Positions 1 through 44,138 of a DNA stretch of 64,000 bases are shown piece after piece (position 1 is the first letter of the stretch; each line of letters starts with the position of its first letter). A program made the position numbers and the translations under genes. The notes under the pieces were generated by a model, which saw only the letters and a list, made by a program, of their open reading frames with translations, did no database searches and was not told where the DNA came from. Origin of the DNA: Naegleria gruberi (Eukaryota); NCBI GenBank assembly GCA_000004985.1, contig GG738861.1; one strand, written 5' to 3'.

Positions 1-554
1 ACCCAAACCCAAACCCAAACCCAAACCCAAACCCAAACCCAAACCCAAACCCAAACCCAAACCCAAACCCAAACCCAAACCCAAACCCAACCACCCAAAC
101 CCAAACCCAAACCCAAACCCAAACCCAAACCCAAACCCAAACCCAAACCCAAACCCAAACCCAAACCCAAACCCAAACCCAAACCCAAACCCAAACCCAA
201 ACCCAAACCCAAACACAAACCCAAACCCAAACCCAAACCCAAACCCAAACCCAAACCCAAACCCAAACCCAAACCCAAACCCAAACCCAAACCCAAACCC
301 AAACCAAAACCCAAACCCAAACCCAAACCCAAACCCAAACCCAAACCCAAACCCAAACCCAAACCCAAACACAAACCCAAACCCAAACCCAAACCCAAAC
401 CCAAACCCAAACCCAAACCCAAACCCAAACCCAAACCCAAACCCAAACCCAAACCCAAACCCAAACCCAAACCCAAACCCAAACCCAAACCCAAACCCAA
501 ACCCAAACCCAAACCCAAACCCAAACCCAAACCCAAACCCAAACCCAAACCCAA
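1..554. repeat. Telomeric repeat array (CCCAAA)n, TTTGGG on the G-rich strand, about 92 units
   Basis: Strict 6-nt periodicity from base 1 to 554, with a few variant units (about 86-96 CCCAACCA, 214-219 CACAAA, 304-309 CCAAAA, 370-375 CACAAA). The C-rich strand reads 5'->3' inward from the window edge, as expected for a left chromosome end. Confidence 0.95.
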
Positions 555-26500: not shown

Positions 26501-28425
26501 CCATTCAAACACTTGGCACAATTACTGGAAGCATCAAAGTTTCCATAACAAGTACATGAGCCATCATTATTACAGTAACCTTTAGAGGAACAATTACTAA
26601 CACTATTACAAGTAATTGAGCAACTGGAACCAACAAATCCACTAGCACATTGATCACAATATGTACCAACAAAGTTACCTTCACAAACACATTTCAAATT
26701 AACACAATTACCTCTGGAATTACAAGTTTGAACTCTATCACAAACTGGAGTGTTACAATTAGCTCCTGAATAATCAAGTGAGCAGCTTGAACAAGATTTA
26801 CCATCATTGTAATTAATTGGACATGAACACTTATTAGGAGCTGAACAAATACCACGAGATGAACAAACACTAGAGCTTGACTTGTCAATTCCATAACAGC
26901 TAAACGTTTGACAAGCTGTACCATTATAACCTTCAGAACAATGACAGATATTTGGAGCAATACATGAACCCTTTCCAGAACAAACTCTATTATCGGTAGC
27001 ACTAATTTCAAAACAAACGGGAATATCACAATTATCACCAACAAAACCATCAACACATTTAGAACAAAACTTGGATGAATCAAAGTTACCATTACAAGAA
27101 CAAACATCCTTTGAAACACATGAACCTCTATACGAACATCCTCCTTGAGATTCACTCAATCCATTACAAGTAGTGTATTGACATCTATCACCAGTGTAAC
27201 CACTATTACATTCACAAGTATTTGGGGCAGTACAATTACCTTGTTTGTTACAACCAGATGTACCTGTTTGATTGTTACAAAGTGGAATAGTACAATCACT
27301 ACCAGTATATCCACTACCACAAACCATAACACTACACTGAGAACCAGTAAAACCTGGATAACAATCACATTGATCTTTTCCTATACATTTACCCTTACTT
27401 GAACAAACAGATGAAGAATTACTCAAAGTATTAAAACATCTTGTTTCAGAACAAGATGGACCTTCCCAACCACTCTTACATGAACATTGATTTAGTGATG
27501 AACAGTTACCATTAGATGAACAAACACTTGATTGATTGGCCAAAATACCAAAACATGAAGTAATTTCACACAACTTGCCATAGAATCCACTATTACATTG
27601 GCAAGTATTTGGACCAACACATTGACCATTTCTTGAACAAACAGTTTGATTGGAGTTGGTTAAACCAGAACAAGAATATGTTTGACATTCAGAACCAATG
27701 TAACCACTCTTACATAAACAGCTATCAACAGAAACACAAGTTCCTGATCCAGAACAAACAGATGAATCAGTAAAATTCTTTCCAAAACATTGATGAATCT
27801 GGCATTCTAATCCACTGTATCCATTATTACATTGACACATATCTTGAGAAATACAAGTACCTTGATTACAAGCTTCAGCTCTTGGCTTAGTGAAACATGT
27901 GATATTCTTTGAGACACAAGTATTTGGAGCAATACATGTATCGTATTGTCCACAGGATTGAGTTTCGTTAGCCAAATAATTATTGCAAATTGGCATGTTA
28001 CAAACACCAGCAGGTCCATAACCTGATTTACATTCGCACTTGTCAAAATCACTGCAGATACCTTTCGAAAAACAAACTTGAGGTGATTGAGAATCGATGC
28101 CATTACAAGTTGTAAAAGAACAATTGTCTCCGTGGTAATTTGTTGAGCAGATACAATCATCGAGACTAGAACATGAACCATGGGATGAACAAACCTTGGA
28201 ATCGTTAGCTGGAGTACCATAACAGGAAGGAATTTCACAGAATTTTCCAATAAATCCATTAACACATATACAACCGCCATCCAGACATGTTCCATTACCA
28301 TTACAGATATTTTCCAAATGAGTAGATCCACATTTAACTGGTTCTGGTTGTGGGGTTTCCGTTGTTGTTTCATTACAGAATGTTCCATTGATATTTGAGT
28401 TACAAATACAGACACCGTTCAACAA
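23572..28425 (-). CDS. C-terminal 1617 codons of a giant EGF / PKD-REJ-like surface protein with a GPI-signal-like hydrophobic end
   Basis: Long ORF. EGF modules are followed by YLDASGSVSSDRRALLFSWYV (PKD/REJ-like), a long Ser/Thr-rich region and the C-terminus VAMISFSVSLLVSIMMCLLML. The first residues (NGVCICNSNINGTFCNETT) continue the repeat of the upstream ORF, so the M at 28425 is not a real start. Confidence 0.8.
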   Translation of the reverse strand: MLNGVCICNSNINGTFCNETTTETPQPEPVKCGSTHLENICNGNGTCLDGGCICVNGFIGKFCEIPSCYGTPANDSKVCSSHGSCSSLDDCICSTNYHGDNCSFTTCNGIDSQSPQVCFSKGICSDFDKCECKSGYGPAGVCNMPICNNYLANETQSCGQYDTCIAPNTCVSKNITCFTKPRAEACNQGTCISQDMCQCNNGYSGLECQIHQCFGKNFTDSSVCSGSGTCVSVDSCLCKSGYIGSECQTYSCSGLTNSNQTVCSRNGQCVGPNTCQCNSGFYGKLCEITSCFGILANQSSVCSSNGNCSSLNQCSCKSGWEGPSCSETRCFNTLSNSSSVCSSKGKCIGKDQCDCYPGFTGSQCSVMVCGSGYTGSDCTIPLCNNQTGTSGCNKQGNCTAPNTCECNSGYTGDRCQYTTCNGLSESQGGCSYRGSCVSKDVCSCNGNFDSSKFCSKCVDGFVGDNCDIPVCFEISATDNRVCSGKGSCIAPNICHCSEGYNGTACQTFSCYGIDKSSSSVCSSRGICSAPNKCSCPINYNDGKSCSSCSLDYSGANCNTPVCDRVQTCNSRGNCVNLKCVCEGNFVGTYCDQCASGFVGSSCSITCNSVSNCSSKGYCNNDGSCTCYGNFDASSNCAKCLNGWFGSNCDFQINSNSFVFTSTGGSIIGEVKSSLLKQSDCSDVISSSDLSLIGSDAKCILNSATSSLEIILGTSANIVPGNSLRLFKFPGSAETLSVTVSSGTFVALPPSVNLVSDKSSVSKCDTLYLDASGSVSSDRRALLFSWYVTNGPTVGEMNALNTYLSGVKTSSAIVDFSSSSLSAISGGSFIIQVTVTTAFSKVATSSVTVNVVSNPVPTLSLSEGISVTYMIGSTIVLTPVIKFPKCYSGNYQTDYTYSVDTSSASKSVVTPKSSNNLFAIGKSFTDINKEGDYYFILRAVSDNANDAFLPFKVTAVAQDLTIQFNISDITQSTQDSLDFSVAVVDPSSTSDSETVTITCFDIVNIKSCSSPNLNQRTFSTFLSAGEYKYTATVVKGSRSASTNLIVKAKSVPKNTLIRASITSNSDLSLVSPSSDLYLTYSSLEVLSSPTFFWFSDKFDLSSLTQTSSFIKIPKSLLSAGASYSISLNITDGSKNGVATTSVNVNSPPTRGIFEASPQSGVALSTLFELKCGNGWTDSQLPLTYQFFYYDDISSSWTALTERTETRSTRIKLPSSSSSQLRLKVAVYDSKLAFTESEISVAVTQPTTTQAVNSIESTAKETPTLASVSAVIKVVSSIAGATAEQKAEIAKLTSNMILSYLDNQAKAQSVASENTNSASSKLSMISSGTSSLEYIVDDIISKMITNLAQTAANAASSDEVKLATELLTKAKEAADKFYRFIVAKGVSKRSFSNSDITNIQATYDSLSSALVKDTVADLPANYIVANQTTTYSRKVNIATLNNLQDIINGNKFKMAAKFSDLVSNYKTLILKVKSSSGGVTNSVSDALDISLAEKSAVTVSSSSSIAELTFSTSKDITMARSVSAYDVYCQVYNSATNNYQLSTSCSVISKTSNSVTVSVSSTGKYLLTAQPKAIPTPVVSPKSSPAPFIPKVSARVNNVAMISFSVSLLVSIMMCLLML

Positions 28426-28509
28426 GTTCCATTATAATAGCAATTATTTTCTTCAACGGTTGATCCACAGTTTAATTGGTTCAGTGGAACAGAGTATTCT
28501 GGTGTGCTT

Positions 28510-31428
28510 TCATTGCAAATGTTCCGTTAACGTTGTATTGCAAATACAAATACCATTTACACATGTTCCGTTACCATAACAGGCATTTTCTTCCAATGTT
28601 TCACCACATTTAATTGGTTCAGGATGTGGGATAACTGGTTCTGTATTTGTTTCATTGCAATATGTACCATTAATGTTTGAATTACAAATACAGACACCAT
28701 TAATGCAAGTACCATTTCCATAACAAATATTTTCATATTCAGTGATACCACATTTAACAACTGGTTCTGGTTGAGGTGTTGGAGTTTCAGAAGTCTCATT
28801 ACAGAAGGTTCCATTAACGTTTGTATTACAAATACAAATACCATTTACGCATGTTCCATTTCCATAACAATTATTTTCCTCAATGGTTGTTCCACATTTA
28901 ATTGGTTCAGGTTGTGGAATTATTGGTTCAACAATGGTTTCATTACAGAAAGTACCGTTTGAGCCACCTAAACATGAACAAATACCATTCAAACAAGTTC
29001 CATTTCCATAACAATTATTTTCTTCAACGGTTGATCCACATTTAATTGGTTCAGGTTGGGGAATTGGAGTTTCTGGAGTTGTTTCATTACAGAATGTTCC
29101 GTTTACATTAGAGTTGCAAATACAAATACCATTTACACATGTTCCGTTACCATAACAGGCATTTTCTTCCAATGTTTCACCACATTTAATTGGTTCAGGA
29201 TGTGGAGTAACAGGTGCTGATGTTGTTTCATTACAATATGTACCATTAATGTTTGAATTACAAATACAGACACCATTCAAACAAGTTCCATTTCCATAAC
29301 AATTATTCTCATCTTCAGTGAAACCACATTTAACAACAGGTTCTGGTTGAGGCTCATGACTTGTTTCATTACAGAAGGTTCCATTAACGTTGGTAATACA
29401 AACACAAATACCATTCATGCAAGTTCCATTTCCATAACAATTATTTTCTTCAATGGTTGATCCACATTTAACTGGTTCAGTTGGAATTTGAGGTTCTGAA
29501 GCAGTTGTTTCATTACAGTATGTTCCGTTCATACCCTCAACACAGATGCACAATCCATCAAGACATGTGCCGTTACCATAACAATTGCTTTCTTCCTGAG
29601 TTGTACCACAAATAATTGGTTCAGGTTGTGGAGAATCAGAATTTGTTTCATTGCAATATGTACCATTTACGTTTGAATTACAAGCACAGACACCATTGAT
29701 GCAAGTTCCATTTCCGTAACAGTTGTTTTCTTCCATGGTTGATCCACATTTAACTGGTTCAGGATGAGGAATTGGAGTTTCAGGAGTTGTTTCATTACAG
29801 AATGTTCCGTTTACCTTTGAATCACAAACACAAATACCATTTAAACAGGTTCCATTACCGTAACAGTTATTTTCTTCCAATGTTTCACCACATTTGACAG
29901 GTTCTGGTTCTGGAGTAACTGGTTCTGTAGTTGTTTCATTGCAGAATGTGCCATTAACATTCTCAAAACATACACACAAGCCATCAACACAAGTACCATT
30001 TCCAAAACAGTTATTTTCTTCTTCGGTCGAACCACATTTAACTACTGGTTCTGGTTGAGTTGGATCTTGAGTTGTTTCGTTACAGAATGTACCATTCACG
30101 CCAATAAAACAAATACAAACACCCTCAATGCATGTACCGTTACCATAACAAGTATTTTCTTCTATAGTTTCACCACATTTGACAGGCTCAGGAACAACTG
30201 GATCTGGAGATGTTTCGTTACAGAATGTACCATTAATATTCTCGTTGCAAACACACAAACCATCAACACATGTTCCATTTCCGTAGCAGCTATTTTCTTC
30301 TGTTGTTTCGCCACATTTAATTGGTTGAGTTGGAACTTGAGGTTCAGTAGGATTAGTTTCGTTACAGAATGTACCATTAACATCTTGATTACAAACACAG
30401 AATCCATTTACACAACTTCCATTGTTGTAGCAATTATTCTCTTCCAAAGTTTCACCACATTGTAAAGGTTGTGGAATTTCAGGTTCTATATTTGATTCAT
30501 TACAGAATGTACCATTTGCGCCTTCTTTGCAAATACAGGAGCCACCAATACAAGTGCCATTACCATAGCAGTTATTTTCATCTTCTGTAAAACCACATTT
30601 AACTGGCTCTGGTTGAGTTGGGATTTCAGGAGCTGTTTCGTTACAGAAAGTACCATTAGCGCCTTCAATACAAACACACAGTCCATCAAGACATGTTCCA
30701 TTACCATAACAATTACTTTCTTCCTGAGTTGTACCACAAATAATTGGTTCAGGTTGGCTGGGAACTGGACTGGTTTCGTTACAGAATGTACCATTACTAC
30801 CTTCATTGCAAGTACAAAAACCATTCTCACACGTACCATTGCCATAACAATTATTCTCTTCTTCTGTAGTACCACATTTAACCAATTCTGGTTGTGGTTC
30901 CATGCTGAAGGTTTCATTACAAAATGTACCATTAACATTCTCGTTACAAATACACAAACCATCGACACATGTACCATTACCATAACAAATATTTTCATCT
31001 TCTGTGAAACCACAGTTAACTGGTTGAGTAGGGACTTGTGGTTCTTGAGTTGTTTCATTACAGAATGTACCATTCACACCTTCAATACATATGCAGAAAC
31101 CATCGACACATGTACCATTACCATAACAATTTTGTTCTTCCAATGTTTCACCACAAGTGGTAATGGTATCATTACAGAATAAACCAATGAAACCTTCTGA
31201 ACATTGACAAACACCACGAGTACAATTACCATTAGAATAGCAAGATTGTTCATCTAATGTTTCACCACAGAAAACATCCTGACATTCCATTGTACCCAAG
31301 AGGTCACATGTCTGGGACAATAAACATTCAGTGTCTGAACTGCATGTTGCTGATACGAGACCAACAGCAGCAATTACAGAAAGTACAATTAAAAGTATTG
31401 TTGTTTTGAACAGCAAGTTACTTGCCAT
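28510..31428 (-). CDS. N-terminal 972 codons of the same gene: signal peptide plus about 20 tandem 41-48-aa EGF-like modules with Pro/Thr/Glu linkers
   Basis: MASNLLFKTTILLIVLSVIAAVGLVSA is a signal peptide. The reiterated unit is KCGxTxEENNCYGNGTCxxGxCxCxxxVNGTFCNETT + PxPxPEPV. The frame ends inside a degenerate unit at about 28510. Confidence 0.8.
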   Translation of the reverse strand: MASNLLFKTTILLIVLSVIAAVGLVSATCSSDTECLLSQTCDLLGTMECQDVFCGETLDEQSCYSNGNCTRGVCQCSEGFIGLFCNDTITTCGETLEEQNCYGNGTCVDGFCICIEGVNGTFCNETTQEPQVPTQPVNCGFTEDENICYGNGTCVDGLCICNENVNGTFCNETFSMEPQPELVKCGTTEEENNCYGNGTCENGFCTCNEGSNGTFCNETSPVPSQPEPIICGTTQEESNCYGNGTCLDGLCVCIEGANGTFCNETAPEIPTQPEPVKCGFTEDENNCYGNGTCIGGSCICKEGANGTFCNESNIEPEIPQPLQCGETLEENNCYNNGSCVNGFCVCNQDVNGTFCNETNPTEPQVPTQPIKCGETTEENSCYGNGTCVDGLCVCNENINGTFCNETSPDPVVPEPVKCGETIEENTCYGNGTCIEGVCICFIGVNGTFCNETTQDPTQPEPVVKCGSTEEENNCFGNGTCVDGLCVCFENVNGTFCNETTTEPVTPEPEPVKCGETLEENNCYGNGTCLNGICVCDSKVNGTFCNETTPETPIPHPEPVKCGSTMEENNCYGNGTCINGVCACNSNVNGTYCNETNSDSPQPEPIICGTTQEESNCYGNGTCLDGLCICVEGMNGTYCNETTASEPQIPTEPVKCGSTIEENNCYGNGTCMNGICVCITNVNGTFCNETSHEPQPEPVVKCGFTEDENNCYGNGTCLNGVCICNSNINGTYCNETTSAPVTPHPEPIKCGETLEENACYGNGTCVNGICICNSNVNGTFCNETTPETPIPQPEPIKCGSTVEENNCYGNGTCLNGICSCLGGSNGTFCNETIVEPIIPQPEPIKCGTTIEENNCYGNGTCVNGICICNTNVNGTFCNETSETPTPQPEPVVKCGITEYENICYGNGTCINGVCICNSNINGTYCNETNTEPVIPHPEPIKCGETLEENACYGNGTCVNGICICNTTLTEHLQ

Positions 31429-32610: not shown

Positions 32611-32751
32611 ATTGCCCTATCATCATTGCAATAATATAATTAATGAAAGACTTCCAATACGGCCCAAACCATTTGCACCACCCAAACAATCAAGTTTGCG
32701 ATTGAAAGATTTTCAAGTTTGCGATTGACTCTTCAACACATAAAGTAAAGT

Positions 32752-34310
32752 ATTCAGATTGATTTTAATTTTACATAATAGTTTTATTACAAACAAGTTT
32801 TTGTTGTTTGTTTGGGAGAATTGAATTGTTTCAAAATCAATAGATTTAGAAACACTTTCTGTGGACAATACCTGGACCGGCATCCTCATATTCTTCCTTG
32901 GTGATCCACATTTGTTGGAAAGTGGACAATGAAGCCAAGATGGAACCACCAATCCAGACAGAGTACTTTCTTTCAGGTGGAGCAACAACCTTAATCTTCA
33001 TGGAAGCTGGAGCCATAGCAGTCAATTCCTTGGTCATTCTTTCAGCAATACCTTCGAACATAGTAGTACCACCAGACAAGACAACGTTACCGTACAAGTC
33101 CTTTCTGATATCAATATCACATTTACCAATAGAGTTGAAAGTAGTTTCATGAACACCAGCAGCTTCCATACCAATGAAGTTTGGTTGGAACAAAACTTCT
33201 GGACATCTGAATCTTTCATTACCAACAGTGATAACATTACCGTCTGGCAATTCGTATGACTTTTCAACAGATGATGATTCAGCAGCAACCTTCATTTCAG
33301 CTTCGAAATCCAAAGCAATATAACAGAGCTTTTCCTTAATATCTCTGACGATTTCTCTTTCAGCAGTAGTATTGAATGAGTAACCTCTTTCCATCAAAAT
33401 CTTCATCAAGTAATCAGTCAAATCACGGCCAGCCAAATCCAATCTCAAAATGGCGTGTGGCAAAGCATAACCTTCATAAATTGGAACAGTGTGGGAAACA
33501 CCATCACCAGAGTCCAAAACAATACCAGTGGTTCTACCAGAAGCATACAAGGACAAGACAGCTTGAATAGCGACATACATAGCTGGAACTGAGAAGGTTT
33601 CAAACATAATTTGAGTCATCTTTTCTCTGTTTGCCTTTGGATTCAAAGGAGCTTCAGTCAACAAGACTGGGTGTTCTTCTGGAGCAACTCTCAATTCATT
33701 GTAGAAAGTGTGATGCCAGATCTTTTCCATATCGTCCCAATTGGTAACAATACCGTGTTCAATTGGATACTTCAAAGTCAAAATACCTCTCTTTGATTGA
33801 GCTTCATCACCAACATAGGCATCCTTATTACCCATACCAACCATAATGGACTTTTGCTTTGGTCTACCAATAATTGAAGGGAAGACAGCTCTTGGAGCAT
33901 CATCACCAGCAAAACCAGCTTTACACATACCAGAACCGTTATCGACAACGAGGGCTTGAACGTCTTCACAGAATGACATTTTATAGATTATTTGAATGGA
34001 TTTGTTTTTTTTGATTTTTAATTGATGATTTGTGTGTTAAAAAAATATTTAAATGAAAAATTAATGAAAGAATGATTGATGTGATTGATGGCAAGTCAAA
34101 TTGAAGTTTTAAAAAACTATTTTAGAGGTCATTTTTTAAATGTGGAAAGTCAAGTGAAGAAGAACAACTTTACAATATGACTTTTCATTCTTTTCATTCA
34201 ACACATCATCAAAATTACTAGCAATCAACTGTAAAATTTAACACATCAAACATTGCTTTGTCAACTTACTGTAATTTTCAACGTGGAAAAAATTCATCAA
34301 GTTTGAATGA
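32752..34310. repeat. Left arm of the actin inverted duplication
   Basis: Reverse complement aligns with 40167-41707 across the CDS, about 330 bp of 5' flank and about 95 bp of 3' flank. Confidence 0.9.
32846..33979 (-). CDS. Actin (conventional, 377 aa), intronless
   Basis: Full-length ORF with canonical actin sequence throughout ([23 protein letters not shown] ... [40 protein letters not shown]). Confidence 0.97.
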
Positions 34311-35072
34311 AACCAACTTCGTCATCATGGAGGAACTAACAGCAACCAGGAATTAATTTATTGTTAGGATTGTGGTCAAGAGACGAAATTAACAAAATTG
34401 TCTCACCCTATATATTCATTGATGCATCAGTGATTCGCATTCTTGTTGTGGTGAGTCCTCTATGGACTTTGATTGGATTGATACTTGGTAATCGGATTCT
34501 CCTTCTTAATACCTCACAAATGGGAATAAGTTTTCTTCTGATTTTCAATTCCCAAGACTAGTATTTATTGTGGTCAGTCTTTTTGGCCTTACACTTGATA
34601 AGTGTGATCTACTGGATTTGGCCAAAATCATCAATAACACTGCCTCGTATCTGCTTGTTGGAATGCCAATTTTTTTAAGTTGGAAGTGCTTGTTGTTATT
34701 AAGAGAGTAATCCAAACAATAATCATTCCTCAATGGTTGTGATATTTTTGATATTTTAGACACAAAGTGGAATTTAATTTGGCTTCAGGTAGGCCTAATT
34801 GCTCTTTTTCCCAACATGAAGATTGTTGGAAACAATACTATGGAGAAAGAATAATAGATTTGGAATTGACCTATTTGGTCCTAATTGCTTGTGGATATTA
34901 TGAGTTTTTTATTGTTTTCTTAAAATTTGAGTTTCACCAATATTTGGATATTTTATTTATTACAAAGCCATACTACGGGGCAAAACATCAATCAACAAGT
35001 GAATGTTCAAGTAATTTCAATAATTGAGCAAAGTTCATCCATCACAATAAATTATTTACAATTCATAAAAAA

Positions 35073-35975
35073 ATGTCTCAAACAACAGTAAAGAATCGTT
35101 GCCCTCACAGAGTTTGGTATCGATTGTATGAATCCGATGATGTAAACTTTACAGGAAAAGACATTGCATCAGGTGAACAGCAAACTGTGGAGGGTGAATT
35201 TAAATCAGTGAAGGGATTCAAGTGGGAGAGAGGAGAGGATGAAGTTTGGGAACCAACTTTTAAAAGTCTATTAGAACCACAAGATGCTTGGAATTATCAC
35301 GTTGATTTGACTTCATTGTTTGGATGTAGACCTGCTAGCTCAATCAAAGTGTTCATGGCATGTTTGGCTGGTCCAGCAGATCCAATGACAAGGAATGACA
35401 TTATTCTCATCGATAAATTACATAAAGAGATTGGTGTACCAAGGGAGAATATTTGGATGTTTTTGGAGAGACAATGTACACCAAATGCAATTTATGAATC
35501 ATTGAAGGTGGCTGCCGAAATTTGTAATGATGAAAATGATATCCTATTTGTTTATTTGGGAGGACATGGAAGCAGAAAACAAAGTGAAGTTTATCAAGAA
35601 AGTGGAAACAAGTTTGAATATAATTTGGGAACTTGGGGAGGATCTACTCCTAGCTCACTTGTTTTGAAAGCAATTCAAAATGTAAAGTGTCCTGTTTTTA
35701 TGGTAGTGGACTCGTGTTATAGTGGCCAAATGATTGATGATGCAAAGAGTTATTTCCTTCATGCACCTCTTGCTCATGAGTTGTATGTTTTAACTTCAAC
35801 TCAGAATGACAAGTCAGCTCAAACTGGCTGGAGACTAATTCAAATGTTGATTGATATCATGATTGAAAGATCAAAGAGTATTACAATTACTCCTACTCTG
35901 ATAGGAAAGACAATTTCAGAAAATTTGAGAACCCCCTATGAAGAACAACGATCTCAATTCCAAATTATTGAATAA
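35073..35975 (+). CDS. Caspase-fold (metacaspase-like, C14-type) cysteine peptidase candidate, 300 aa
   Basis: ORF with an A-rich start context. His/Cys dyad motifs have the expected order and spacing: ILFVYLGGHGS (compare xSGHG) and FMVVDSCYSGQ (compare D[SC]CHSG). The N-terminal region of about 90 aa is unassigned. Confidence 0.55.
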   Translation: MSQTTVKNRCPHRVWYRLYESDDVNFTGKDIASGEQQTVEGEFKSVKGFKWERGEDEVWEPTFKSLLEPQDAWNYHVDLTSLFGCRPASSIKVFMACLAGPADPMTRNDIILIDKLHKEIGVPRENIWMFLERQCTPNAIYESLKVAAEICNDENDILFVYLGGHGSRKQSEVYQESGNKFEYNLGTWGGSTPSSLVLKAIQNVKCPVFMVVDSCYSGQMIDDAKSYFLHAPLAHELYVLTSTQNDKSAQTGWRLIQMLIDIMIERSKSITITPTLIGKTISENLRTPYEEQRSQFQIIE

Positions 35976-36366
35976 GTAACTGGCCCACAACAAATCTCCC
36001 AAAATCATATTCGAATGATGAACGAGATCTACAAAATGAGAAATAAACATTAGTCTCCATTATGTCTGTAAACTGTCCCATTCAAGGAAGGGTTCAGAAA
36101 GATATGGAAAATTTGTCAAACAGTCAAACTGCATTATTGCAATGTATTTCAAGCAATTTATTTCATGTTCATTTCTTGAGATATTTGGTAGTAATGTAAA
36201 ATGTGTTTCCAATTATTAAATATCTATGTAACATTATAATTATGAACGAAATCACTTCAGTTAAATTTTGACGATGAAAACAATTCTGAAAATAGCATAA
36301 CTTTAAAAAACATAAATTTTTGCCATCAACTTTTAATGTCCAACCATCAAATCAACATAAAAAAAA

Positions 36367-37116
36367 ATGCAACCCATTCAACCACCAAACAAACAATCAT
36401 CATCAGCAACACCTTCTTTCCTTAATTCTCAGCAACGGAACCAACATGATGAAAAACAACCTGTGAATGATAATGAAGAACAAGATGAACTAAATTTATC
36501 AATTTATGAAGAGGATAATATCAGCACAGATGATGAATGTCATGATAATGGAATTTCCAATTTATCTTTGCATTCCAATCATCAAGAAGATGAAACAGAG
36601 GATGCATCTCCACTTGAGGAATTGAACAAATTCGTCTTCAACATTCATGCTTTCAGAGGTGAATTGTTAATGAATGAGACAAGTAATAATGCCACTATTC
36701 AAGTTTACAAAAATACAAATTATAGCTGTAGAAATTCAAATTTCAAGTTACATGATATTCCCTTGATATTCTTGGATGGTTGTAAAGATAATGTATTTTA
36801 TTGTAAGAAACATTGTGAGAAAGTGTATTCACATTCGAATCTCCATACCACAATTGACAGATTAGGTGGATCCACAACAAGAATTACAGCATTTGGACTT
36901 TCTTTATTGAAGAAGGCAATGGTGCTGATAAACAAGGAATCGAATAGTTTTGATACACTGCTATCTAATCATGCTCAACAGCTGGCTTTGGTTTCGTATA
37001 CAGGATTGATGCTAATGGCTAATAAGAAGAAGAATCAACCTGAATGGGACGAAACTGAATTATCTTCCTTTTACAAGCACAAGTTTATTATTGTATTGAA
37101 GGGAATTACTTTATAA
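36367..37116 (+). CDS. Hypothetical protein, acidic N-terminus, 249 aa
   Basis: ORF with AAAAAAAAA before the ATG. No recognisable domain. Its stop lies only 37 nt before the next ATG, so linkage to the next gene is possible. Confidence 0.5.
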   Translation: MQPIQPPNKQSSSATPSFLNSQQRNQHDEKQPVNDNEEQDELNLSIYEEDNISTDDECHDNGISNLSLHSNHQEDETEDASPLEELNKFVFNIHAFRGELLMNETSNNATIQVYKNTNYSCRNSNFKLHDIPLIFLDGCKDNVFYCKKHCEKVYSHSNLHTTIDRLGGSTTRITAFGLSLLKKAMVLINKESNSFDTLLSNHAQQLALVSYTGLMLMANKKKNQPEWDETELSSFYKHKFIIVLKGITL

Positions 37117-37153
37117 CTCAAATTGTTGTAATCATAAATTCGAATATTAAAAA

Positions 37154-38180
37154 ATGTCATATCTTCAACTCCCCACAGAGATGCACCACCAGATTCTATC
37201 CTATTTATCACCTTTTTGTGAATTATTCCACAATCAAATTGGTGGAAAACACTTGGATCCATTTATAAAGTTCATTCCGATAATATTGAACTTTCGATTG
37301 ATTCATCCAAATTATTCGAAATTAATTTCAAAATATGTAGATGAATTTTGTTGGAGTTTATTTGGAAATATGATGGATACTTATTCGATAGAACCCAAAG
37401 AAATTGATTTATTGAAAATTAAATTCACCAAAATTGGAATTGTGAAAAGTTTTGGTTCCTTTATTCATCTGATTCGAACAAGAGAAAAACAAATCCGATT
37501 CATCAGAAATTAAACTCTTTCTACTGGGAAGTGTGTACAGTGGCAAAACCTCAATTATTAAGAGATTTGTTTATAATCAGTTCACACAAGGTTATGAATC
37601 ACCTTCCTGTTTTTATGAAGAATTCAAACAAACAATTTCTATAGATCAAAGAGAAGAATCCATACTCTTAATAGATTCATTTGGGATCCTTAGTCGTTTC
37701 CTTCCATTTGAAGAACGTTATTATTGTAAAAAGATTAATTTCAATGTTTTGGTAATTGTTTGCTCAATGACGGAATATGAAAGTTTGCATGATTTGAAAC
37801 AAATATTGAGGAGATTTGTGGATGATAAGGGATTGAATGCTCCTTGTGTTGTGGCCATTAATAAGTGTGATCTTTTTCATCATTGTGTGGTTGATATAAG
37901 GGAGGTTAATGAAATTGTGGAAAATTTTGGATTGACTGATTATAAAATTATGGAGACGAGTGCAAAAACAGGAAAGAATATTGAAGAATTAGTGGAAGAA
38001 TGTGTTAGAAAGTTTAGAGAACGATTGAGAGATGTAAAAAGTGTTGTAGAACAAGTTCTGTTATTGGATCAAGAGGAGAAAGATGACAGAATGAGTATTT
38101 ACAAGATGGTGTTTATACCTCTTTGCTTTCTTTGGAATTTGATACTAAACTCGATTTTTCTCTGGAAGCTTAATGAATAG
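37154..38180 (+). CDS. F-box-like N-terminus joined to a Ras/Rab-like small GTPase with a hydrophobic C-terminal tail (2-exon model, 330 aa)
   Basis: Exon 1 (37154-37448) carries LPTEMHHQILSYLSP (F-box-like). A 34-nt GT..AG intron at 37449-37482 joins it in frame to 37483-38180. The GTPase P-loop LLGSVYSGKTS begins upstream of the track's GTG 'start' at 37533. G3 is LIDSFG, G4 is NKCD, G5 is ETSAK, and the tail is MVFIPLCFLWNLILNSIFLW. Confidence 0.5.
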
Positions 38181-38627
38181 AATCTCACCGACACGGAATT
38201 CACTAGACAAGTTTTCATTATTTTATGAAACAGAAAGGATAACCTTCTTAATGTTTCAAAAGATGCTAATCAAATAATTGGAAATGTTATAATCTATCAA
38301 CATTTCATTCTGTGGATCATCTTCTGAAATTCTGAATTGAATAGCAATGGAGCTTTGTTTAAAAGATAACTTGATAAGATTTGTTAATTAATTATAATTT
38401 ACAATTTTTCATGACTAACGTAATTCTCAACAATAACATACCAATTTGAAATTTGGTAAAACTGCAAATAGAATATTTTATTGGAAAGAAAAATAAAGGA
38501 GTCTAACCTTTGACTATTTTCTCGATGGAATTAGGAGATAAGGTTTTGAAAATTGGCAGATATGTTGATTACATACCAGTCTTCATATTATGAAAAAAAT
38601 TTTAAATTAAATAGTGAAGATAAAGTT

Positions 38628-38632
38628 AAAAA
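38628..38632 (-). terminator. Pol III terminator (T5) downstream of the tRNA-Asp 3' fragment
   Basis: In minus-strand sense: ...CACTCGA G ATTAATTTTTAAC. Confidence 0.6.
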
Positions 38633-38637
38633 TTAAT

Positions 38638-39092
38638 CTCGAGTGCCGGGAATTGAATTTCCTAATTTGGAAGATGACTTCAACAACCAAATAACAATAA
38701 TAAATTGGGTTATTAAATTAATGTTTATTAAATAGTGACCGTTAGGTCACTGATTGTTAATTAATTATTGATGATGATTTGTTGTTGAACAGATACTAAC
38801 CACCACCGATTGTTGTCATAATATTAAACACAGAGTAATCACCGTGTCGCCAAATTCCTTGATAATTATTCATAACTGTAACTTCTTGATCAAAAGGCAC
38901 TCGAGCAATAAACAATTTGATTTCACACAGCCAAAACTCTCGTTCATACTTTGGGTACCGGGAATGAAATTTCCAAATAAGGAATGACCGATATCATTCA
39001 ACTATTACTAACTCATACTCACACTAACAAAACAAATTGAACCCGGGTCGCCAGAGTGACAGTCTGGAATGCTACCACTATACCACACCCGA
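38638..39092 (-). tRNA. tRNA-Asp(GUC) gene split in the T-loop by a 377-bp insertion
   Basis: 5' part, 39092->39035: TCGGGTGTGGTATAGTGGTAGCATTCCAGACTGTCACTCTGGCGACCCGGGTTCAATT (A box, anticodon loop CTGTCAC). 3' part, 38657->38638: TTCAATTCCCGGCACTCGAG. Joining them at the duplicated TTCAATT gives a 71-nt cloverleaf with a 7-bp acceptor stem (one G-U) and the T stem CCGGG/CCCGG. Confidence 0.85.
38658..39034. mobile_element. Insertion in the T-loop of tRNA-Asp (377 bp, non-coding)
   Basis: Flanked by a direct TTCAATT on both sides. Its ends are homologous to those of the tRNA-Gly insertion. It contains the pseudo-T-arm motif GGAAATTTCATTCCCGGTACCCAA (38952-38980, minus sense) and the hairpin AGTGACC-GTTA-GGTCACT (38734-38751). 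Confidence 0.7.
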
Positions 39093-40166
39093 TTTCATAT
39101 TAAGTGATAAATATTATTGAATATATAGACGTATTTTCAACAATTTTAAATAATTCTACCAACACCAATCCTGTGGTGAGATCCAGTTTCAAACCCTTTT
39201 AAAGGCATCCATTGCCCATCAGTAATTATAAACGAGTTGATCTCACAATAGTTCCTCGGACAATATTCCAATTTCCTTCAACACGTATTCTTCTTCCAAT
39301 CTCTCAAGCCTTTCCATAAATTGCAATACAATAATGATTCAGAAGTATGAATAAATTCAATAGTATCACATTTACATATAGTACATTTAGAACATGATCA
39401 GCACAGCCATTAGTTTCCCAAATTCCACTCTCTGAAAATCTTAAAGATTCAGTACTATCAGTCTCGTGTAGAAATTAACAAGAATACTGTGATAATTCAT
39501 TCACTCACAGAATTCAATTCAGTAGGTGAAAAGACAGGAAAGTTAATTTGATCTACCTTAAAATTGGTTTCCATCTTTGTCTAGAATATCACCTTAATTC
39601 ATTGAACAAGGGAATTTTCTAGAATATACATGTTAACTTTGCAAGAGCTTATTTCAAAAGATCAACTCTTGACACAAGTGGAAAATTAATCAACTCAAAT
39701 TAACAATGCTGTTCAATCACTGATGTCAAATATTAAAGGGTTCATCCCTATCCCCAATTACTATTCTCTTAAAATCACATAACTTTATCCAAAATGATTT
39801 CCAGTGTTTTCCCTTCTTCATTCCAGAATTAACTGAAGAAATATCATCCACTCAACTAATCATCTCAATAATACATGTGTTTATCTCAAATTATAATGTA
39901 AATATATCCACAGCACACAATGTTGCAACTTGAATTGATTGGAAGAGTAGAGTCACTTTGGGATGATTAAATTTGTTGTAGCCTCTCCACTAAATGTTAA
40001 ACCAACAACAACAATAATACCATCCAATGATAATCAACAATTGACGGCCCTCCAACTAGAAAGGGACAAGAAATAACGATGTGATATTACTATCAATATG
40101 TATGTGGTGGGAATTGTGTGAGCAGATGCAAGAATATTGTAGATGAAGGTTTTCTATTTTTTATCA

Positions 40167-41707
40167 AACTTGATGAATTTTTTCCATGTTGAAAATTACA
40201 GTAAGTTGTTAATTGCAATGTTTGCTGATTGTTTGCTCGTAATGTTTGATGATGTGTTGAATGAAAATAATGAAAAGTCATATTGTAAAGTTGTTCTTCT
40301 TCACTTGACTTTCCACATTTAAAAAATGACCTCTAAAATAGTTTTTTAAACTTCAATTTGACTTGCCATCAATCACATCAATCATTCTATCATTAATTTT
40401 TCATTTAAATATTTTTTTAACACACAAATCATCAATTAAAAATCAAAAAAAAACAAATCCATTCAAATTCTATAAAAATGTCATTCTGTGAAGACGTTCA
40501 AGCCCTCGTTGTCGATAACGGTTCTGGTATGTGTAAAGCTGGTTTTGCTGGTGATGATGCTCCAAGAGCTGTCTTCCCTTCAATTATTGGTAGACCAAAG
40601 CAAAAGTCCATTATGGTTGGTATGGGTAATAAGGATGCCTATGTTGGTGATGAAGCTCAATCCAAGAGAGGTATTTTAACTTTGAAGTATCCAATTGAAC
40701 ACGGTATTGTTACCAATTGGGATGATATGGAAAAGATCTGGCATCACACTTTCTACAATGAATTGAGAGTTGCTCCAGAAGAACATCCAGTCTTGTTGAC
40801 TGAAGCTCCTTTGAATCCAAAGGCCAATAGAGAAAAGATGACTCAAATTATGTTTGAAACTTTCTCAGTTCCAGCTATGTACGTCGCTATTCAAGCTGTC
40901 TTGTCCTTGTATGCTTCTGGTAGAACTACTGGTATTGTTTTGGACTCTGGTGATGGTGTTTCCCACACTGTTCCTATCTATGAAGGTTATGCTTTGCCAC
41001 ACGCCATCTTGAGATTGGATTTGGCTGGTCGTGATTTGACTGATTATTTGATGAAGATTTTGATGGAAAGAGGTTATTCATTCAATACTACTGCTGAAAG
41101 AGAAATTGTCAGAGATATTAAGGAAAAGCTCTGTTATATTGCTTTGGATTTCGAAGCTGAAATGAAGGTTGCTGCTGAATCATCATCAGTTGAAAAGTCA
41201 TACGAATTGCCAGATGGTAATGTTATCACTGTTGGTAACGAAAGATTCAGATGTCCAGAAGTCTTGTTCCAACCAAACTTCATTGGTATGGAAGCTGCTG
41301 GTGTTCATGAAACTACTTTCAACTCCATTGGTAAATGTGATATTGACATCAGAAAGGACTTGTACGGTAACGTTGTCTTGTCTGGTGGTACTACTATGTT
41401 CGAAGGTATTGCTGAAAGAATGACCAAGGAATTGACTGCTATGGCTCCTGCTTCAATGAAGATTAAGGTTGTTGCTCCACCTGAAAGAAAGTACTCTGTC
41501 TGGATTGGTGGTTCCATCTTGGCTTCATTGTCCACTTTCCAACAAATGTGGATCACAAAGGAAGAATATGAGGATGCCGGTCCAGGTATTGTTCACAGAA
41601 AGTGTTTCTAAATCTATTGATTTTGAAACAATTCAATTCTCCCAAACAAACAACAAAAACTTGTTTGTAATAAAACTATTATGTAAAATTAAAATCAATC
41701 TGAATAC
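40167..41707. repeat. Right arm of the actin inverted duplication
   Basis: See the left arm (32752-34310). Confidence 0.9.
40478..41611 (+). CDS. Actin (conventional, 377 aa), intronless; protein identical to the 32846-33979 copy
   Basis: The ORF translation is identical residue for residue to the other copy. The nucleotide differences I counted are all third-position and synonymous. Confidence 0.97.
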
Positions 41708-42004
41708 TTTTTGTGTTGCGAAAGAGAAATTGAAATCTTTAACAAACTTCGAATAGGTTCAAAGTTATTATAGACAAAACTTGGAAATGAACTAAATTAA
41801 TCTTCCCTTAAATCAAAAAGATTCTCATTTACTCTCAAGCCCTTAAATAGTCATCATCAACATGTTGACTCTCTCTCGAATATTCGTCATCACCAACAGC
41901 ACGGAAGTTTAGGATGACGCACAAAAAGATATTATTCGTAAATAATGTACTTATGAATAAAATATATTTGGATCTATTCAAAAGGATCTAAAATAGAAAA
42001 AAAA

Positions 42005-44138
42005 ATGAGCAAACAAGAATTGCAGGAAACCATTGAAAAATCAACTAGCAAGACTGCTGCTGATGAGAGCAGTTTTGAAGAGGAAGAACATGAGGATATC
42101 ACTGCAGATGAACAAGTATTGCAAGATTTTTACAAGAAGGAAGCTCAGATTAAACAAGCTACTAAACCAAAGGAAGAAAAGCCGGTTGCTGCTTCTACTT
42201 ATGAAGATCAGGGAGAAGGTGCACATATGATTGAAATGCCATTAGATAAAACTAAGCTTTCCAAGACTGATATTAGGTCATTGCACAAAGATGAAGTAAA
42301 ACAAGCTAGAAAGGAATTGGACAAGCTTCCGAAGCCTCAAACTTTCCCAAATCATGCTGAAATTAGTTTCTTTGGTGCTTCAGGTACTGTTACTGGTAGT
42401 AAGCACATGATTACTTATGGATCTTTGAATGCTTTGATTGATTGCGGAATGTATCAAGGTTTGAAGGAACTTAGGTATGTTTTTTAATTCTTTCATTTGT
42501 TTTAATTAGATTAATTATCAAAGAGAGAGAAACTGGAAATTAATTTCATCATCAAAACCTGTTGAAACAATGTGTGATGCCATCATTATTACTCACTCTC
42601 ACTTGGATCACACTGGTTATCTTCCAAGGTATGTTTTTTATACAATGTTTTGATACAAATGAAAATTAAAACTATCAAAAATCATCAATCGGAATGAATA
42701 ATTTAATCTTCAATCATCATAATAATATCAAAATAGAATGGTTGCTCTTGGATTTACTGGACCAATCTACATGACAGAACAAACATTTAATTTGACCAAA
42801 CTAATCTTGTTGGATTCTGCTCGTTTACAAGAAGAAGATGCTCACTATGCCAATCACAAAGAAACTACTAAACATGAGGTTGCCCTTCCACTCTATTCCG
42901 AAGAAGATGTTCTCAACTGTTTCAAGTTGGTGAGAACTGTCAAGTATGGAGAAAAAATTGTTGTTAAAAGTAGATTGGATGAAGACAAATTCAGCTTTAA
43001 ATACTTTAATGCAGGACACTTGTTGGGATCATCGTTTGTTGAAATTACTCTTGACACAAAGGAAAAGATTATCTTTTCAGGAGATTTGGGAACTTTCCAC
43101 ACCTCCACTCCAATGCAACAACAACCTCAATTACCAATGGGAGCTGATTATGTTATTTGTGAAGCTACTTATGGTGGCAAGTCACACATTGATTTTGCAA
43201 CTGGTAGAGCTGCTGAGGATCAAGATTACATTATTGAAACTAAGGTTAAACCAGCGTTGAAACAAGCTGTTGAACATATTGTGGAAAATGATGGTGTAAT
43301 TCTTATTCCAGCTTTTGCCATTGGTCGTTCTCAAACTATTGCTTATCACTTGTTAAAGATGATGAGAGAGAAGGAAATTCCAACACTTCCTGTCCACATG
43401 AACTCTCCAATGTCAGTTGAAGCTCTTGATTTTTATCAACAATATTTATTGGACGAACATCAAAAGGATGCACACGAAATTTTGAGAGATGTCATTTGCC
43501 ATAATAGTGCTAAGGAATCTAAGGAACTTCACAAAAAGCTCAAGGATGGTTATTCTAAATGTGTCATTATCAGTAGTAGTGGTATGATGACAGGTGGTCG
43601 TTGTTTATTCCACTTTGAAGAATTGGCTCCTCATGAAAAGAACGTTCTCTTATTGAGTGGTTTCCAAGCTGAAGGTACAAGAGGTAGAGACTTGCTTAAT
43701 GGTGTCAGAGATATCAAATTATTGGGCAAGACTGTCAATGTTAAATGCCAAGTCATGCAAGTCCAAGGTTTGTCTGCTCACGGTGATACTGATGATGTTA
43801 TTAAATGGATTGAGGCTGCCAAAAATCCAAAACCAAAGATGGTTTTCGTTGTCCACGGAGAACCAACCTCACTCCGTAGTATGGCTAGAGAAATTTGTGT
43901 TGAATTGGATGTTAATGCTCTCGTTCCAAAGAGAGGTACAACATTCCACATGAGAACTGAACTCTCCTTCAGTCACAGTAGAAGAGCTAGTGTTGTTTCA
44001 ACCAATAACAGTTTACAAGATGTCATTTCAAGCAATATGCCTGATATTCCAAAACTTGGAAAGACCAATATGGTTCACGTGATGTATGCTGGTATTATTT
44101 TAATTGCCTTTATTGCCTTCCTTTTAAGATTCTTTTAA
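42005..44138 (+). CDS. Beta-CASP metallo-beta-lactamase-fold nuclease (bacterial-type), 658 aa, 3 exons, C-terminal TM anchor
   Basis: join(42005..42474, 42524..42628, 42737..44138), with both junctions in phase. Motifs: FFGASGTVTGSKHMI, DCGMYQGLKELR|ERNW, IIITHSHLDHTGYLPR, FVVHGEP. The acidic/Lys-rich N-extension is about 120 aa. The C-terminus is MVHVMYAGIILIAFIAFLLRFF. Confidence 0.8.

What the first reader, a model, noticed from the sequence alone, without database searches (positions are those of the whole stretch)
32752..41707. Actin genes as a 1.55-kb inverted duplication around a 5.9-kb spacer; all coding differences are synonymous
The two intronless actin genes face outward-in (32846-33979 minus, 40478-41611 plus) and encode identical 377-aa proteins. 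By hand I count roughly 25 nucleotide differences in the CDS. All are at third positions and all are synonymous. The first roughly 190 nt are identical. The proximal 240 bp or so of promoter/5' flank is about 97 percent identical, whereas the distal flank has indels. The pattern shows strong purifying selection with possible partial gene conversion. The large palindrome could also mediate inversion of the intervening gene block.
Basis: seen in the sequence. Interest (0 to 1): 0.5.

Follow-up and report, generated by a model that had tools for sequence, protein, structure and literature searches.

The report
Inverted pair of Naegleria actin genes
Two head-to-head copies of an ordinary actin gene in the amoeba Naegleria gruberi encode the same protein and show patchy copy-correction (gene conversion) between copies; this is a routine example of how multi-copy cytoskeleton genes evolve.

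Summary
Window 32747-34306 and 40164-41710 are inverted-repeat arms of about 1.55 kb around a 5,857-nt unique spacer. Each arm carries an intronless 377-aa actin gene, and the two proteins are identical. The CDSs differ at 26 sites, all third-position and synonymous (dN=0, dS about 0.115). The organism is Naegleria gruberi, and the locus lies about 33 kb from a TTTGGG telomere. The genes are divergent, with their 5' ends facing the spacer.

New here: divergence along the arms is mosaic. The proximal promoter (0.9%), CDS 1-185 (0) and the last 18 CDS nt plus 97 nt of 3' flank (0) are far more alike than synonymous sites in CDS 186-1116 (about 11-13%) or the distal 5' arm (7.6% plus indels). Orthologous N. 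fowleri/N. lovaniensis actin flanks diverge at 0.55 times the synonymous rate or more, so constraint alone does not explain this. Gene conversion at the gene ends, or import of CDS variants from other actin paralogues, does. Concerted evolution of dispersed and inverted actin copies is clear in N. fowleri and N. lovaniensis.

Inversion of the spacer is untested. Recombinant-flank contigs in an N. fowleri assembly hint that actin repeats can mediate inversions.

This is an ordinary member of a known phenomenon, of low to moderate interest.

The parts
32747..34306 (-). Arm A of the inverted duplication (1,560 nt): 3' flank, actin CDS and 5' flank
   Evidence: the repeat finder I1-I4; global alignment; blastn self-hit 32747-34306 vs 41710-40164, 96.5%
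32846..33979 (-). Actin gene A, intronless, 377 aa, 100% identical to N. gruberi NAEGRDRAFT_55094
   Evidence: P0061: 100% identity, PF00022
32749..32845 (-). 3' flank / probable 3'UTR of gene A; 97 nt with no difference from arm B
33980..34213 (-). Proximal 5' flank of gene A (short A-rich leader plus promoter region); 2 substitutions and 4-5 small indels against arm B
34214..34306 (-). Distal 5' end of arm A; 7.6% substitutions plus 5 indel events against arm B, consistent with an older divergence
34307..40163 (+). Unique 5,857-nt spacer. ORFs, all on the + strand: 35073-35975 (weak caspase-like), 36367-37116 and 37154-37513 (no family match), 37533-38180 (Ras-family GTPase). 38181-40163 has no ORF of 63 aa or more, no Rfam match and no tRNA
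40164..41710 (+). Arm B of the inverted duplication (1,547 nt)
40478..41611 (+). Actin gene B, intronless, 377 aa, protein identical to gene A; 26 synonymous third-position differences
40245..40477 (+). Proximal 5' flank of gene B, homogenised with arm A
41612..41708 (+). 3' flank of gene B, 97 nt identical to arm A. Indel-shredded residual homology continues to about 41760 (A: about 32680-32748)
1..554 (.). Context: (CCCAAA)n, which is (TTTGGG)n on the other strand, at the window edge. This is the telomere repeat, so the palindrome is subtelomeric
   Evidence: TTTGGG published as the candidate N. gruberi telomere repeat (PMC3622300)

Best explanation
This is a real DNA-level inverted duplication of a complete actin transcription unit (promoter, intronless CDS, 3'UTR) in a subtelomeric region of a Naegleria gruberi chromosome. 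Both copies are kept as working genes for the same major actin isoform, probably for dosage. Any amino-acid change is removed by purifying selection, so only synonymous changes accumulate (shown). The duplication is not recent: neutral-like sites in the distal arm and synonymous sites in the middle of the CDS are about 8-13% diverged (shown). The promoter-proximal 234 nt plus CDS 1-185, and the last 18 CDS nt plus 97 nt of 3' flank, have been re-homogenised since then by short non-reciprocal recombination (gene conversion) between the two arms (inferred from the mosaic divergence and from demonstrated conversion among actin copies in sister species). The result is two co-regulated genes with nearly identical control regions. 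Crossing-over between the arms would invert the 5.9-kb spacer without damaging either gene. That is mechanistically possible but has not been shown.
For: Identical proteins and 26 of 26 synonymous differences. Arm boundaries and a unique spacer and outer flanks. No assembly gap nearer than 22605. Mosaic divergence: 5' distal 7.6% plus indels, 5' proximal 0.9%, CDS 1-185 0, central CDS pS about 0.11-0.13, 3' 115 nt 0; flank vs synonymous Fisher P=1.3e-8; distal vs proximal flank P=0.004; distal flank vs central synonymous sites P=0.30, so these two could be of one age. In CDS 186-1116, A and B differ at 26 sites, almost as many as A differs from the unlinked paralogue L001 (29); in CDS 1-185 A and B are identical and L001 differs at 6 sites. 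Calibration: orthologous N. fowleri/N. lovaniensis actin flanks diverge at 0.53-0.89 times the synonymous rate. That predicts 13.2 and 5.7-9.3 substitutions where 2 and 0 are seen (P=2e-4 and P=3e-3 to 9e-5). N. gruberi flanks show no similarity to those of the other species. Precedent in the genus: four N. fowleri loci differ by 0-3 nt and three N. lovaniensis loci by 3-22 nt, against 43-50 nt between the species, although the loci are syntenic. Inverted pairs L005/L006 and L012/L013 are 0.5-3.7% diverged upstream, against 12-18% for their orthologues.
Against: Two separate conversion tracts, one at each gene end, are needed, which is less economical than a single event. The homogenised blocks coincide with the likely promoter and UTRs, so regulatory constraint contributes an unknown share. 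The calibration comes from different species and different loci. Only one other N. gruberi paralogue (L001) could be examined at the DNA level, so import of CDS variants from other paralogues cannot be excluded. Site patterns supporting A+L001 and B+L001 groupings (15 and 10 sites) are compatible with reticulation or with homoplasy at two-state C/T sites. The 185-nt identical CDS stretch is not significant alone.
Confidence: 0.6

Rival explanations
1. The whole arms were homogenised recently, by a recent duplication or one long arm-to-arm conversion covering promoter to 3'UTR. The 26 synonymous differences in the middle of the CDS were then imported by ectopic gene conversion from other members of the large N. 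gruberi actin family. Those members share homology with A and B only within the coding region.
For: N. gruberi has more than 20 and up to 64 actin genes (PMC7594500; PMC9928731), and four GenBank entries carry this exact protein. In N. fowleri, homology and homogenisation among dispersed copies are confined to the CDS plus about 50 nt, showing that CDS-limited interlocus conversion operates in the genus. This explains with one principle why only the CDS interior is diverged. The central region of A and B is about as far from each other as from L001, and conflicting site patterns exist (15 AL|B, 10 BL|A).
Against: The distal 5' arm (7.6% substitutions plus 5 indels) and the shredded distal 3' arm indicate an old duplication, not a recent one. 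No long tract matching L001 is seen. The longest run of B-unique sites (201-351) is not statistically remarkable (my estimate, not a formal test). No donor has been identified.
Confidence: 0.25
2. There has been no gene conversion. The duplication is old, and the promoter-proximal region, 5' CDS and 3'UTR are simply under much stronger purifying selection (regulatory elements, mRNA stability and translation signals) than synonymous sites.
For: The homogeneous blocks coincide with the expected promoter/5'UTR and 3'UTR. About 250 nt upstream of actin is alignable between N. fowleri and N. lovaniensis while sequence further upstream is not, so some constraint exists.
Against: In orthologue comparisons the same flank regions diverge at 0.53-0.89 times the synonymous rate, with many indels. 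That predicts about 13 and 6-9 substitutions where 2 and 0 are observed. N. gruberi flanks have no detectable similarity to those of sister species. L001 encodes the same protein but has different UTRs, so the UTR sequence is not obligatory for this isoform.
Confidence: 0.1
3. Assembly artefact: one arm is a mis-placed allele or a duplicated assembly of a single actin locus.
For: The window comes from a draft assembly with gaps elsewhere (four N runs) and a repeat-rich subtelomeric setting. I could not retrieve N. gruberi genomic DNA from any other source.
Against: There are no gaps between 22606 and the end of the window. The arms differ by 26 CDS substitutions plus flank indels, and each is embedded in unrelated unique sequence on both sides. 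An allele would share its flanks. Multiple genes for this exact protein are recorded in GenBank.
Confidence: 0.04

Closest known systems
Multi-copy actin and tubulin gene families that encode identical proteins (Dictyostelium: 17 genes for one actin; N. gruberi alpha/beta-tubulin genes that differ only by silent substitutions)
   Same: Several genes encode exactly the same cytoskeletal protein and differ only at silent sites. This is attributed to dosage need plus purifying selection (PMC7594500; PMC9081340). N. gruberi itself has at least four entries for this exact actin.
   Different: Here two of the copies form a tight inverted pair that also shares promoter and 3'UTR. The mosaic of homogenised ends against a diverged centre has not, as far as my searches show, been described for Naegleria actin.
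Concerted evolution of dispersed paralogues by interlocus gene conversion (textbook cases, from my own knowledge: globin, histone and heat-shock hsp70 inverted pairs in Drosophila)
   Same: Paralogues are more alike within a species than orthologues are between species, and the conversion tracts have discrete ends. This is demonstrated here for N. fowleri and N. lovaniensis actin loci.
   Different: For the N. gruberi pair no orthologous locus was found, so concerted evolution is inferred from within-arm heterogeneity rather than from a species comparison. The pair is also much less homogenised (26 differences) than the N. fowleri copies (0-3).
Large genomic palindromes with arm-to-arm gene conversion (e.g. 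human Y-chromosome ampliconic palindromes; from my own knowledge)
   Same: Inverted arms around a unique spacer, genes located in the arms, arm-to-arm conversion, and the potential for spacer inversion.
   Different: The arms here are about 1.5 kb rather than tens of kb to Mb. Arm identity is 96.5% rather than over 99.9%. Conversion looks patchy rather than pervasive.
Flip-flop inversion systems with inverted repeats (plastid genome IR isomers, yeast 2-micron plasmid; from my own knowledge)
   Same: The inverted-repeat geometry would allow recombination to invert the intervening segment.
   Different: No isomers have been observed. There is no site-specific recombinase among the spacer ORFs. 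Any inversion here would rely on general homologous recombination.

Membership tests
Conventional actin (Pfam PF00022) | Full-length actin domain with high identity to annotated actins | tested here: met
   The product is 100% identical to N. gruberi NAEGRDRAFT_55094 (P0061, PF00022) and 98-99% identical to N. fowleri and N. lovaniensis actin. The same protein is annotated PF00022.
Conventional actin (Pfam PF00022) | Both copies intact (complete ORF, start and stop, no frameshift) | tested here: met
   Both ORFs are 1,134 nt and translate to the identical 377 aa with a terminal stop.
Conventional actin (Pfam PF00022) | Both copies transcribed | not testable with these tools
   The only transcript-like contig found (L001) comes from a third gene with different UTRs. 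No read data were available for the 26 diagnostic sites.
Inverted segmental duplication / genomic palindrome | Two arms in reverse-complement orientation with identity far above chance | tested here: met
   Arms 32747-34306 and 40164-41710, 96.5% identical over 1,564 columns. Sequence just beyond the arms aligns at random level.
Inverted segmental duplication / genomic palindrome | Unique spacer between the arms | tested here: met
   The 5,857-nt spacer has no internal or arm-related repeats in the self-blastn.
Inverted segmental duplication / genomic palindrome | Not an assembly artefact (independent read support) | not testable with these tools
   Only indirect evidence: no gaps nearby, and distinct flanks and substitutions.
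Concerted evolution by gene conversion | Paralogues more similar within a species than orthologues between species at syntenic loci | tested here: met
   Met for N. fowleri and N. lovaniensis actin loci. For the N. gruberi pair itself no orthologous locus exists in the data.
Concerted evolution by gene conversion | Significant heterogeneity of silent divergence along the repeat (discrete homogenised tracts) | tested here: met
   Proximal flanks 2/328 vs synonymous 26/243, P=1.3e-8. Distal vs proximal 5' flank P=0.004. Poisson tests against the orthologue-calibrated expectation give P=2e-4 and P=3e-3 or lower.
Concerted evolution by gene conversion | Identified donor and recipient tracts (GENECONV-type test across all paralogues) | tested here: inconclusive
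   Only three N. gruberi sequences were available. Site patterns were 24 AB|L, 15 AL|B, 10 BL|A and 1 three-way, with no clear tract.
Invertible DNA segment (flip-flop isomers) | Both orientations of the spacer present in the population or in reads | not testable with these tools
   Needs long reads of N. gruberi. Only an analogy is available, from N. fowleri alternative contigs.
Invertible DNA segment (flip-flop isomers) | Dedicated site-specific recombinase at the locus | tested here: not met
   Pfam scan of the spacer and flanking ORFs found a weak caspase-like match, a Ras GTPase, a beta-CASP nuclease and ORFs with no match, but no recombinase, integrase or transposase.

The most novel reading that the evidence does not exclude
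Naegleria actin genes act as dispersed, continually homogenised recombination substrates that repeatedly invert the chromosome segments between oppositely oriented copies. Under this reading the N. gruberi subtelomeric palindrome flips its 5.9-kb spacer. It would also mean that N. fowleri ATCC 30894 carries a structural haplotype differing from the main assembly by two nested inversions of about 23 kb and about 107 kb, with breakpoints inside actin genes. That is what contigs VFQX01000080, 75 and 50 suggest.
Probability: 0.2. Interest if true: 0.45.

Novelty: new member of a known kind. Interest (0 to 1): 0.25.

Why it matters
The finding documents, with numbers, how one of the many N. gruberi actin genes was duplicated and is kept identical at the protein level. 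It also shows that gene conversion acts on Naegleria actin genes, patchily in N. gruberi and almost completely in N. fowleri. This is useful for three things. First, it bears on why Naegleria actin copy number varies so widely (4 to 64 genes, 'reasons unclear', PMC9928731). Second, it warns that actin gene trees within the genus reflect conversion and not duplication history. Third, it flags actin repeats as likely sites of mis-assembly or real rearrangement in Naegleria genomes. It does not reveal a new kind of element or mechanism.

Tried and rejected
1. Retrieving other N. gruberi actin loci to look for a conversion donor. Exact-protein look-ups for P0061, P0078 and P0075 returned only one 1.2-kb transcript-like Logan contig (L001) or nothing. 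The N. gruberi genome is not in the indexed DNA, so the donor test could use only three sequences and was inconclusive.
2. Synteny. None of the spacer or flanking proteins occurs near the 12 N. fowleri/N. lovaniensis actin loci. The N. fowleri orthologue of the adjacent beta-CASP gene has no actin within 10 kb on either side and has different neighbours. A 95%-identical relative's contig (L014) starts inside the beta-CASP gene and does not reach actin. L016 is likewise uninformative.
3. Two metagenome scans with arm-specific 3'UTR and promoter motifs gave 0 hits.
4. RNA genes in the spacer: no Rfam family and no tRNA.
5. The sigma-70 promoter/terminator scan does not apply to a eukaryote and was ignored.
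6. The 185-nt identical start of the CDS as standalone evidence of conversion was rejected, because the scan-statistic P is 0.23.
7. L001 as donor of a long tract was rejected, because the A-like and B-like sites are interleaved.
8. Literature searches for a prior description of Naegleria actin gene conversion or an inverted actin pair found only general statements about copy number.
Full report
OBSERVATION. The finding is accurate. ORF listing shows two 377-aa ORFs, 32846-33979 on the minus strand and 40478-41611 on the plus strand, with identical translations. A base-by-base comparison finds 26 differences in 1,134 nt. Every one is at a third codon position and every one is synonymous (19 transitions, 7 transversions). 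The first is at CDS nt 186 and the last at nt 1116. Repeat finding, a global alignment and a self-blastn agree on the arms: 32747-34306 and 40164-41710, 96.5% identical over 1,564 columns, around a 5,857-nt spacer at 34307-40163. The two genes are transcribed divergently, so their 5' ends and promoters face the spacer. There is no other conventional actin gene in the window. A 36%-identical actin-related gene lies at 48844-50001.

ORGANISM AND CONTEXT. The protein is 100% identical to Naegleria gruberi NAEGRDRAFT_55094, and four GenBank entries carry exactly this sequence. The window begins with about 554 nt of (CCCAAA)n, which is TTTGGG on the other strand. TTTGGG is the published candidate telomere repeat of N. 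gruberi (PMC3622300). The palindrome is therefore subtelomeric, about 33-42 kb from a chromosome end. Assembly gaps (N runs) lie at 1862-1911, 16986-17035, 18627-18676 and 21585-22605, and none is in or near the palindrome. The spacer carries four plus-strand ORFs: a weak caspase-like match, two with no family match, and a Ras-family GTPase. It also has about 2 kb with no ORF of 63 aa or more, no Rfam hit and no tRNA. A beta-CASP/MBL nuclease gene follows arm B.

SELECTION. Nei-Gojobori counting gives S=243, N=888, Sd=26, Nd=0 and dS=0.115. If substitutions were unselected, the chance that all 26 would be synonymous is about 4e-18. The gene has strong codon bias (ENC about 27), as expected for a highly expressed gene. 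Synonymous sites are therefore themselves somewhat constrained, and dS probably underestimates neutral divergence. Purifying selection on the protein is established.

THE MOSAIC. The new result is that divergence is very uneven along the arms.
- Distal 5' arm: 6 substitutions in 79 aligned nt (7.6%) plus 5 indel events.
- Proximal 5' flank (234 nt): 2 substitutions in 231 nt (0.9%) plus a few 1-2 nt indels, mostly in homopolymer runs.
- CDS 1-185: 0 differences.
- CDS 186-1116: 26 synonymous differences (pS about 0.11 overall, about 0.13 locally).
- Last 18 CDS nt plus 97 nt of 3' flank: 0 differences.
- Then about 65 nt of indel-shredded residual homology, and random-level alignment beyond.
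The proximal flanks are significantly less diverged than synonymous sites (Fisher P=1.3e-8) and less diverged than the distal 5' arm (P=0.004). The distal arm and the central synonymous sites are statistically indistinguishable (P=0.30). A third gene for the same protein, L001 (a transcript-like Logan contig with different UTRs), sharpens the picture. In CDS 186-1116, A differs from B at 26 sites, from L001 at 29, and B from L001 at 34. In CDS 1-185, A and B are identical and L001 differs at 6 sites (Fisher P=0.03). So the centres of A and B are barely closer to each other than to an unlinked paralogue, while their ends are identical.

CONSTRAINT OR CONVERSION. I calibrated using orthologous actin loci of N. 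fowleri and N. lovaniensis, where orthology is shown by shared flanking genes. There the CDS pS is 0.195. The proximal 234-nt upstream flank has 10-11% substitutions plus about 16 indel events, and the first 97 nt downstream has 11-17%. Flanks thus evolve at 0.53-0.89 times the synonymous rate. Applied to A/B, this predicts 13.2 substitutions upstream (2 observed, P=1.9e-4) and 5.7-9.3 downstream (0 observed, P=3e-3 to 9e-5). N. gruberi flanks show no similarity beyond chance to the other species' flanks, and L001 shows that the same protein is expressed with different UTRs. Constraint therefore contributes but cannot be the whole explanation. The ends have been homogenised recently.

PRECEDENT IN THE GENUS. 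Four N. fowleri loci on contig VFQX01000044.1 sit at about 432, 483, 591 and 616 kb, in alternating orientation. They encode one actin and differ by 0-3 nt. Three N. lovaniensis loci differ by 3-22 nt. Between the two species the difference is 43-50 nt, and to N. gruberi it is 77-90 nt. The loci are syntenic between the species, so the duplications predate speciation and the copies have been homogenised within each species. This is classical concerted evolution. Among most N. fowleri copies, homology stops about 50 nt outside the CDS. The inverted pairs L005/L006 (about 50 kb apart) and L012/L013 (about 43 kb apart) share 1.3 kb or more of upstream sequence, diverged 0.5% and 3.7%, against 12-18% for orthologues. 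The 3' flank of L005 is of the L006 type rather than that of its own orthologue L013, which suggests L006 converted L005. Arm-to-arm conversion between inverted actin genes therefore operates in Naegleria.

MOST LIKELY HISTORY. The duplication is old (about 8-13% silent divergence). Both copies are maintained by purifying selection. Conversion tracts have since re-homogenised the 5' block (about -234 to +185) and the 3' block (115 nt or more); confidence 0.6. The main rival (0.25) is whole-arm homogenisation followed by import of CDS variants from other members of the large actin family. N. gruberi has more than 20 and up to 64 actin genes (PMC7594500, PMC9928731). This rival neatly explains why only the CDS interior differs, but it does not explain the diverged distal arms, and no donor tract was seen. 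Pure constraint (0.1) and assembly artefact (0.04) are unlikely, for the reasons given above.

INVERSION. Nothing in a single sequence can show spacer inversion, and no recombinase is encoded at the locus. Indirect support comes from the N. fowleri assembly. Three small contigs join the upstream flank of one actin locus to the downstream flank of another at over 99% identity, and the switch falls inside the actin repeat. L002 combines the upstream flank of L003 with the downstream flank of L004. L007 combines upstream L005 with downstream L003. L008 combines upstream L004 with downstream L005. This three-way exchange is exactly what two successive inversions between oppositely oriented actin genes would produce. 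The assembly was built with Canu from reads with an N50 of 11.7 kb, much longer than the 1.2-kb repeat (PMC6831594). L002 also carries an extra RNase-H-containing insertion, which favours a real alternative haplotype. Chimeric contigs cannot be excluded without the reads.

COMPARISON WITH RELATED SPECIES. No orthologous locus was found. The spacer and flank genes are absent from all fetched actin loci, and the N. fowleri beta-CASP orthologue has no neighbouring actin. The position of the pair is therefore specific to the N. gruberi lineage, which fits a subtelomeric origin.

VERDICT. It belongs to a well-known class: multi-copy cytoskeletal genes that encode identical proteins, purifying selection plus gene conversion, and a small palindrome. 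I rate it a new member of a known kind, with interest about 0.25. The only mildly unusual aspects are the 'ends homogenised, centre diverged' mosaic and the hint, from a sister species, that actin repeats mediate inversions.

Noticed in passing
window 1-554: About 92 tandem copies of CCCAAA (TTTGGG on the other strand) at the very start of the window, in the orientation expected for a left chromosome end. TTTGGG is the published candidate N. gruberi telomere repeat (PMC3622300). The window is therefore a chromosome end.
   Followed up: partly
L002, L007, L008 (N. fowleri GCA_008403515.1 contigs VFQX01000080.1, 75.1, 50.1) vs L003-L006 (VFQX01000044.1): Small contigs join the upstream flank of one actin locus to the downstream flank of another at over 99% identity, with the switch inside the 1.2-kb actin repeat. 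The combinations are up3+down4, up5+down3 and up4+down5. This equals two successive inversions between inverted actin genes (about 23 kb and about 107 kb). It is either a structural haplotype or assembly chimeras. L010, from an independent short-read assembly, shows yet another combination (L005/L006-type upstream with L004 downstream).
   Followed up: partly
L003-L006 (N. fowleri), L011-L013 (N. lovaniensis): Actin copies at syntenic loci are nearly identical within a species (0-3 nt and 3-22 nt) but differ by 43-50 nt between the species, which is strong concerted evolution. The L005 3' flank matches the L006 type rather than its own orthologue L013, which suggests conversion from L006 into L005.
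   Followed up: yes
window 28277-31428 (-): A long ORF (972 aa within the listed ORF; the repeats extend to about 28277) made of about 20 tandem 46-aa (138-nt) EGF/teneurin-like cysteine repeats. The repeats are about 70-80% identical at the DNA level. It lies immediately outside arm A.
   Followed up: partly
window 48844-50001 (-): An actin-related protein gene (386 aa, 36% identical to the actin, Pfam Actin E=3e-85) about 7 kb beyond arm B. It is not part of the duplication.
   Followed up: partly
window 42005-44138 (+): A beta-CASP/RMMBL metallo-beta-lactamase-fold nuclease gene, probably two exons (42005-42487 and 42738-44138). Apart from Naegleria and Willaertia, its best database relatives are bacterial (Acidobacteriota and others, about 38-40% identity), so it may have been acquired by horizontal transfer.
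   Followed up: no
window 14989-15868 and 17747-18626: An 880-nt direct repeat, 96% identical, lying next to 50-N assembly gaps (16986-17035, 18627-18676), with weaker related copies at 17036-18198. It could be a tandem gene family or an assembly problem.
   Followed up: no
window 38181-40163: About 2 kb of the spacer next to arm B has no ORF of 63 aa or more on either strand, no Rfam family and no tRNA. Its content is unexplained; it may be an intron-rich gene or decayed sequence.
   Followed up: partly
L001 (Logan SRR3922091 contig, 1,207 nt): A transcript-like contig encoding the identical 377-aa actin. It differs from A and B at 35 and 40 synonymous sites, and its UTRs are different. This shows at least a third expressed gene for the same protein.
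   Followed up: partly
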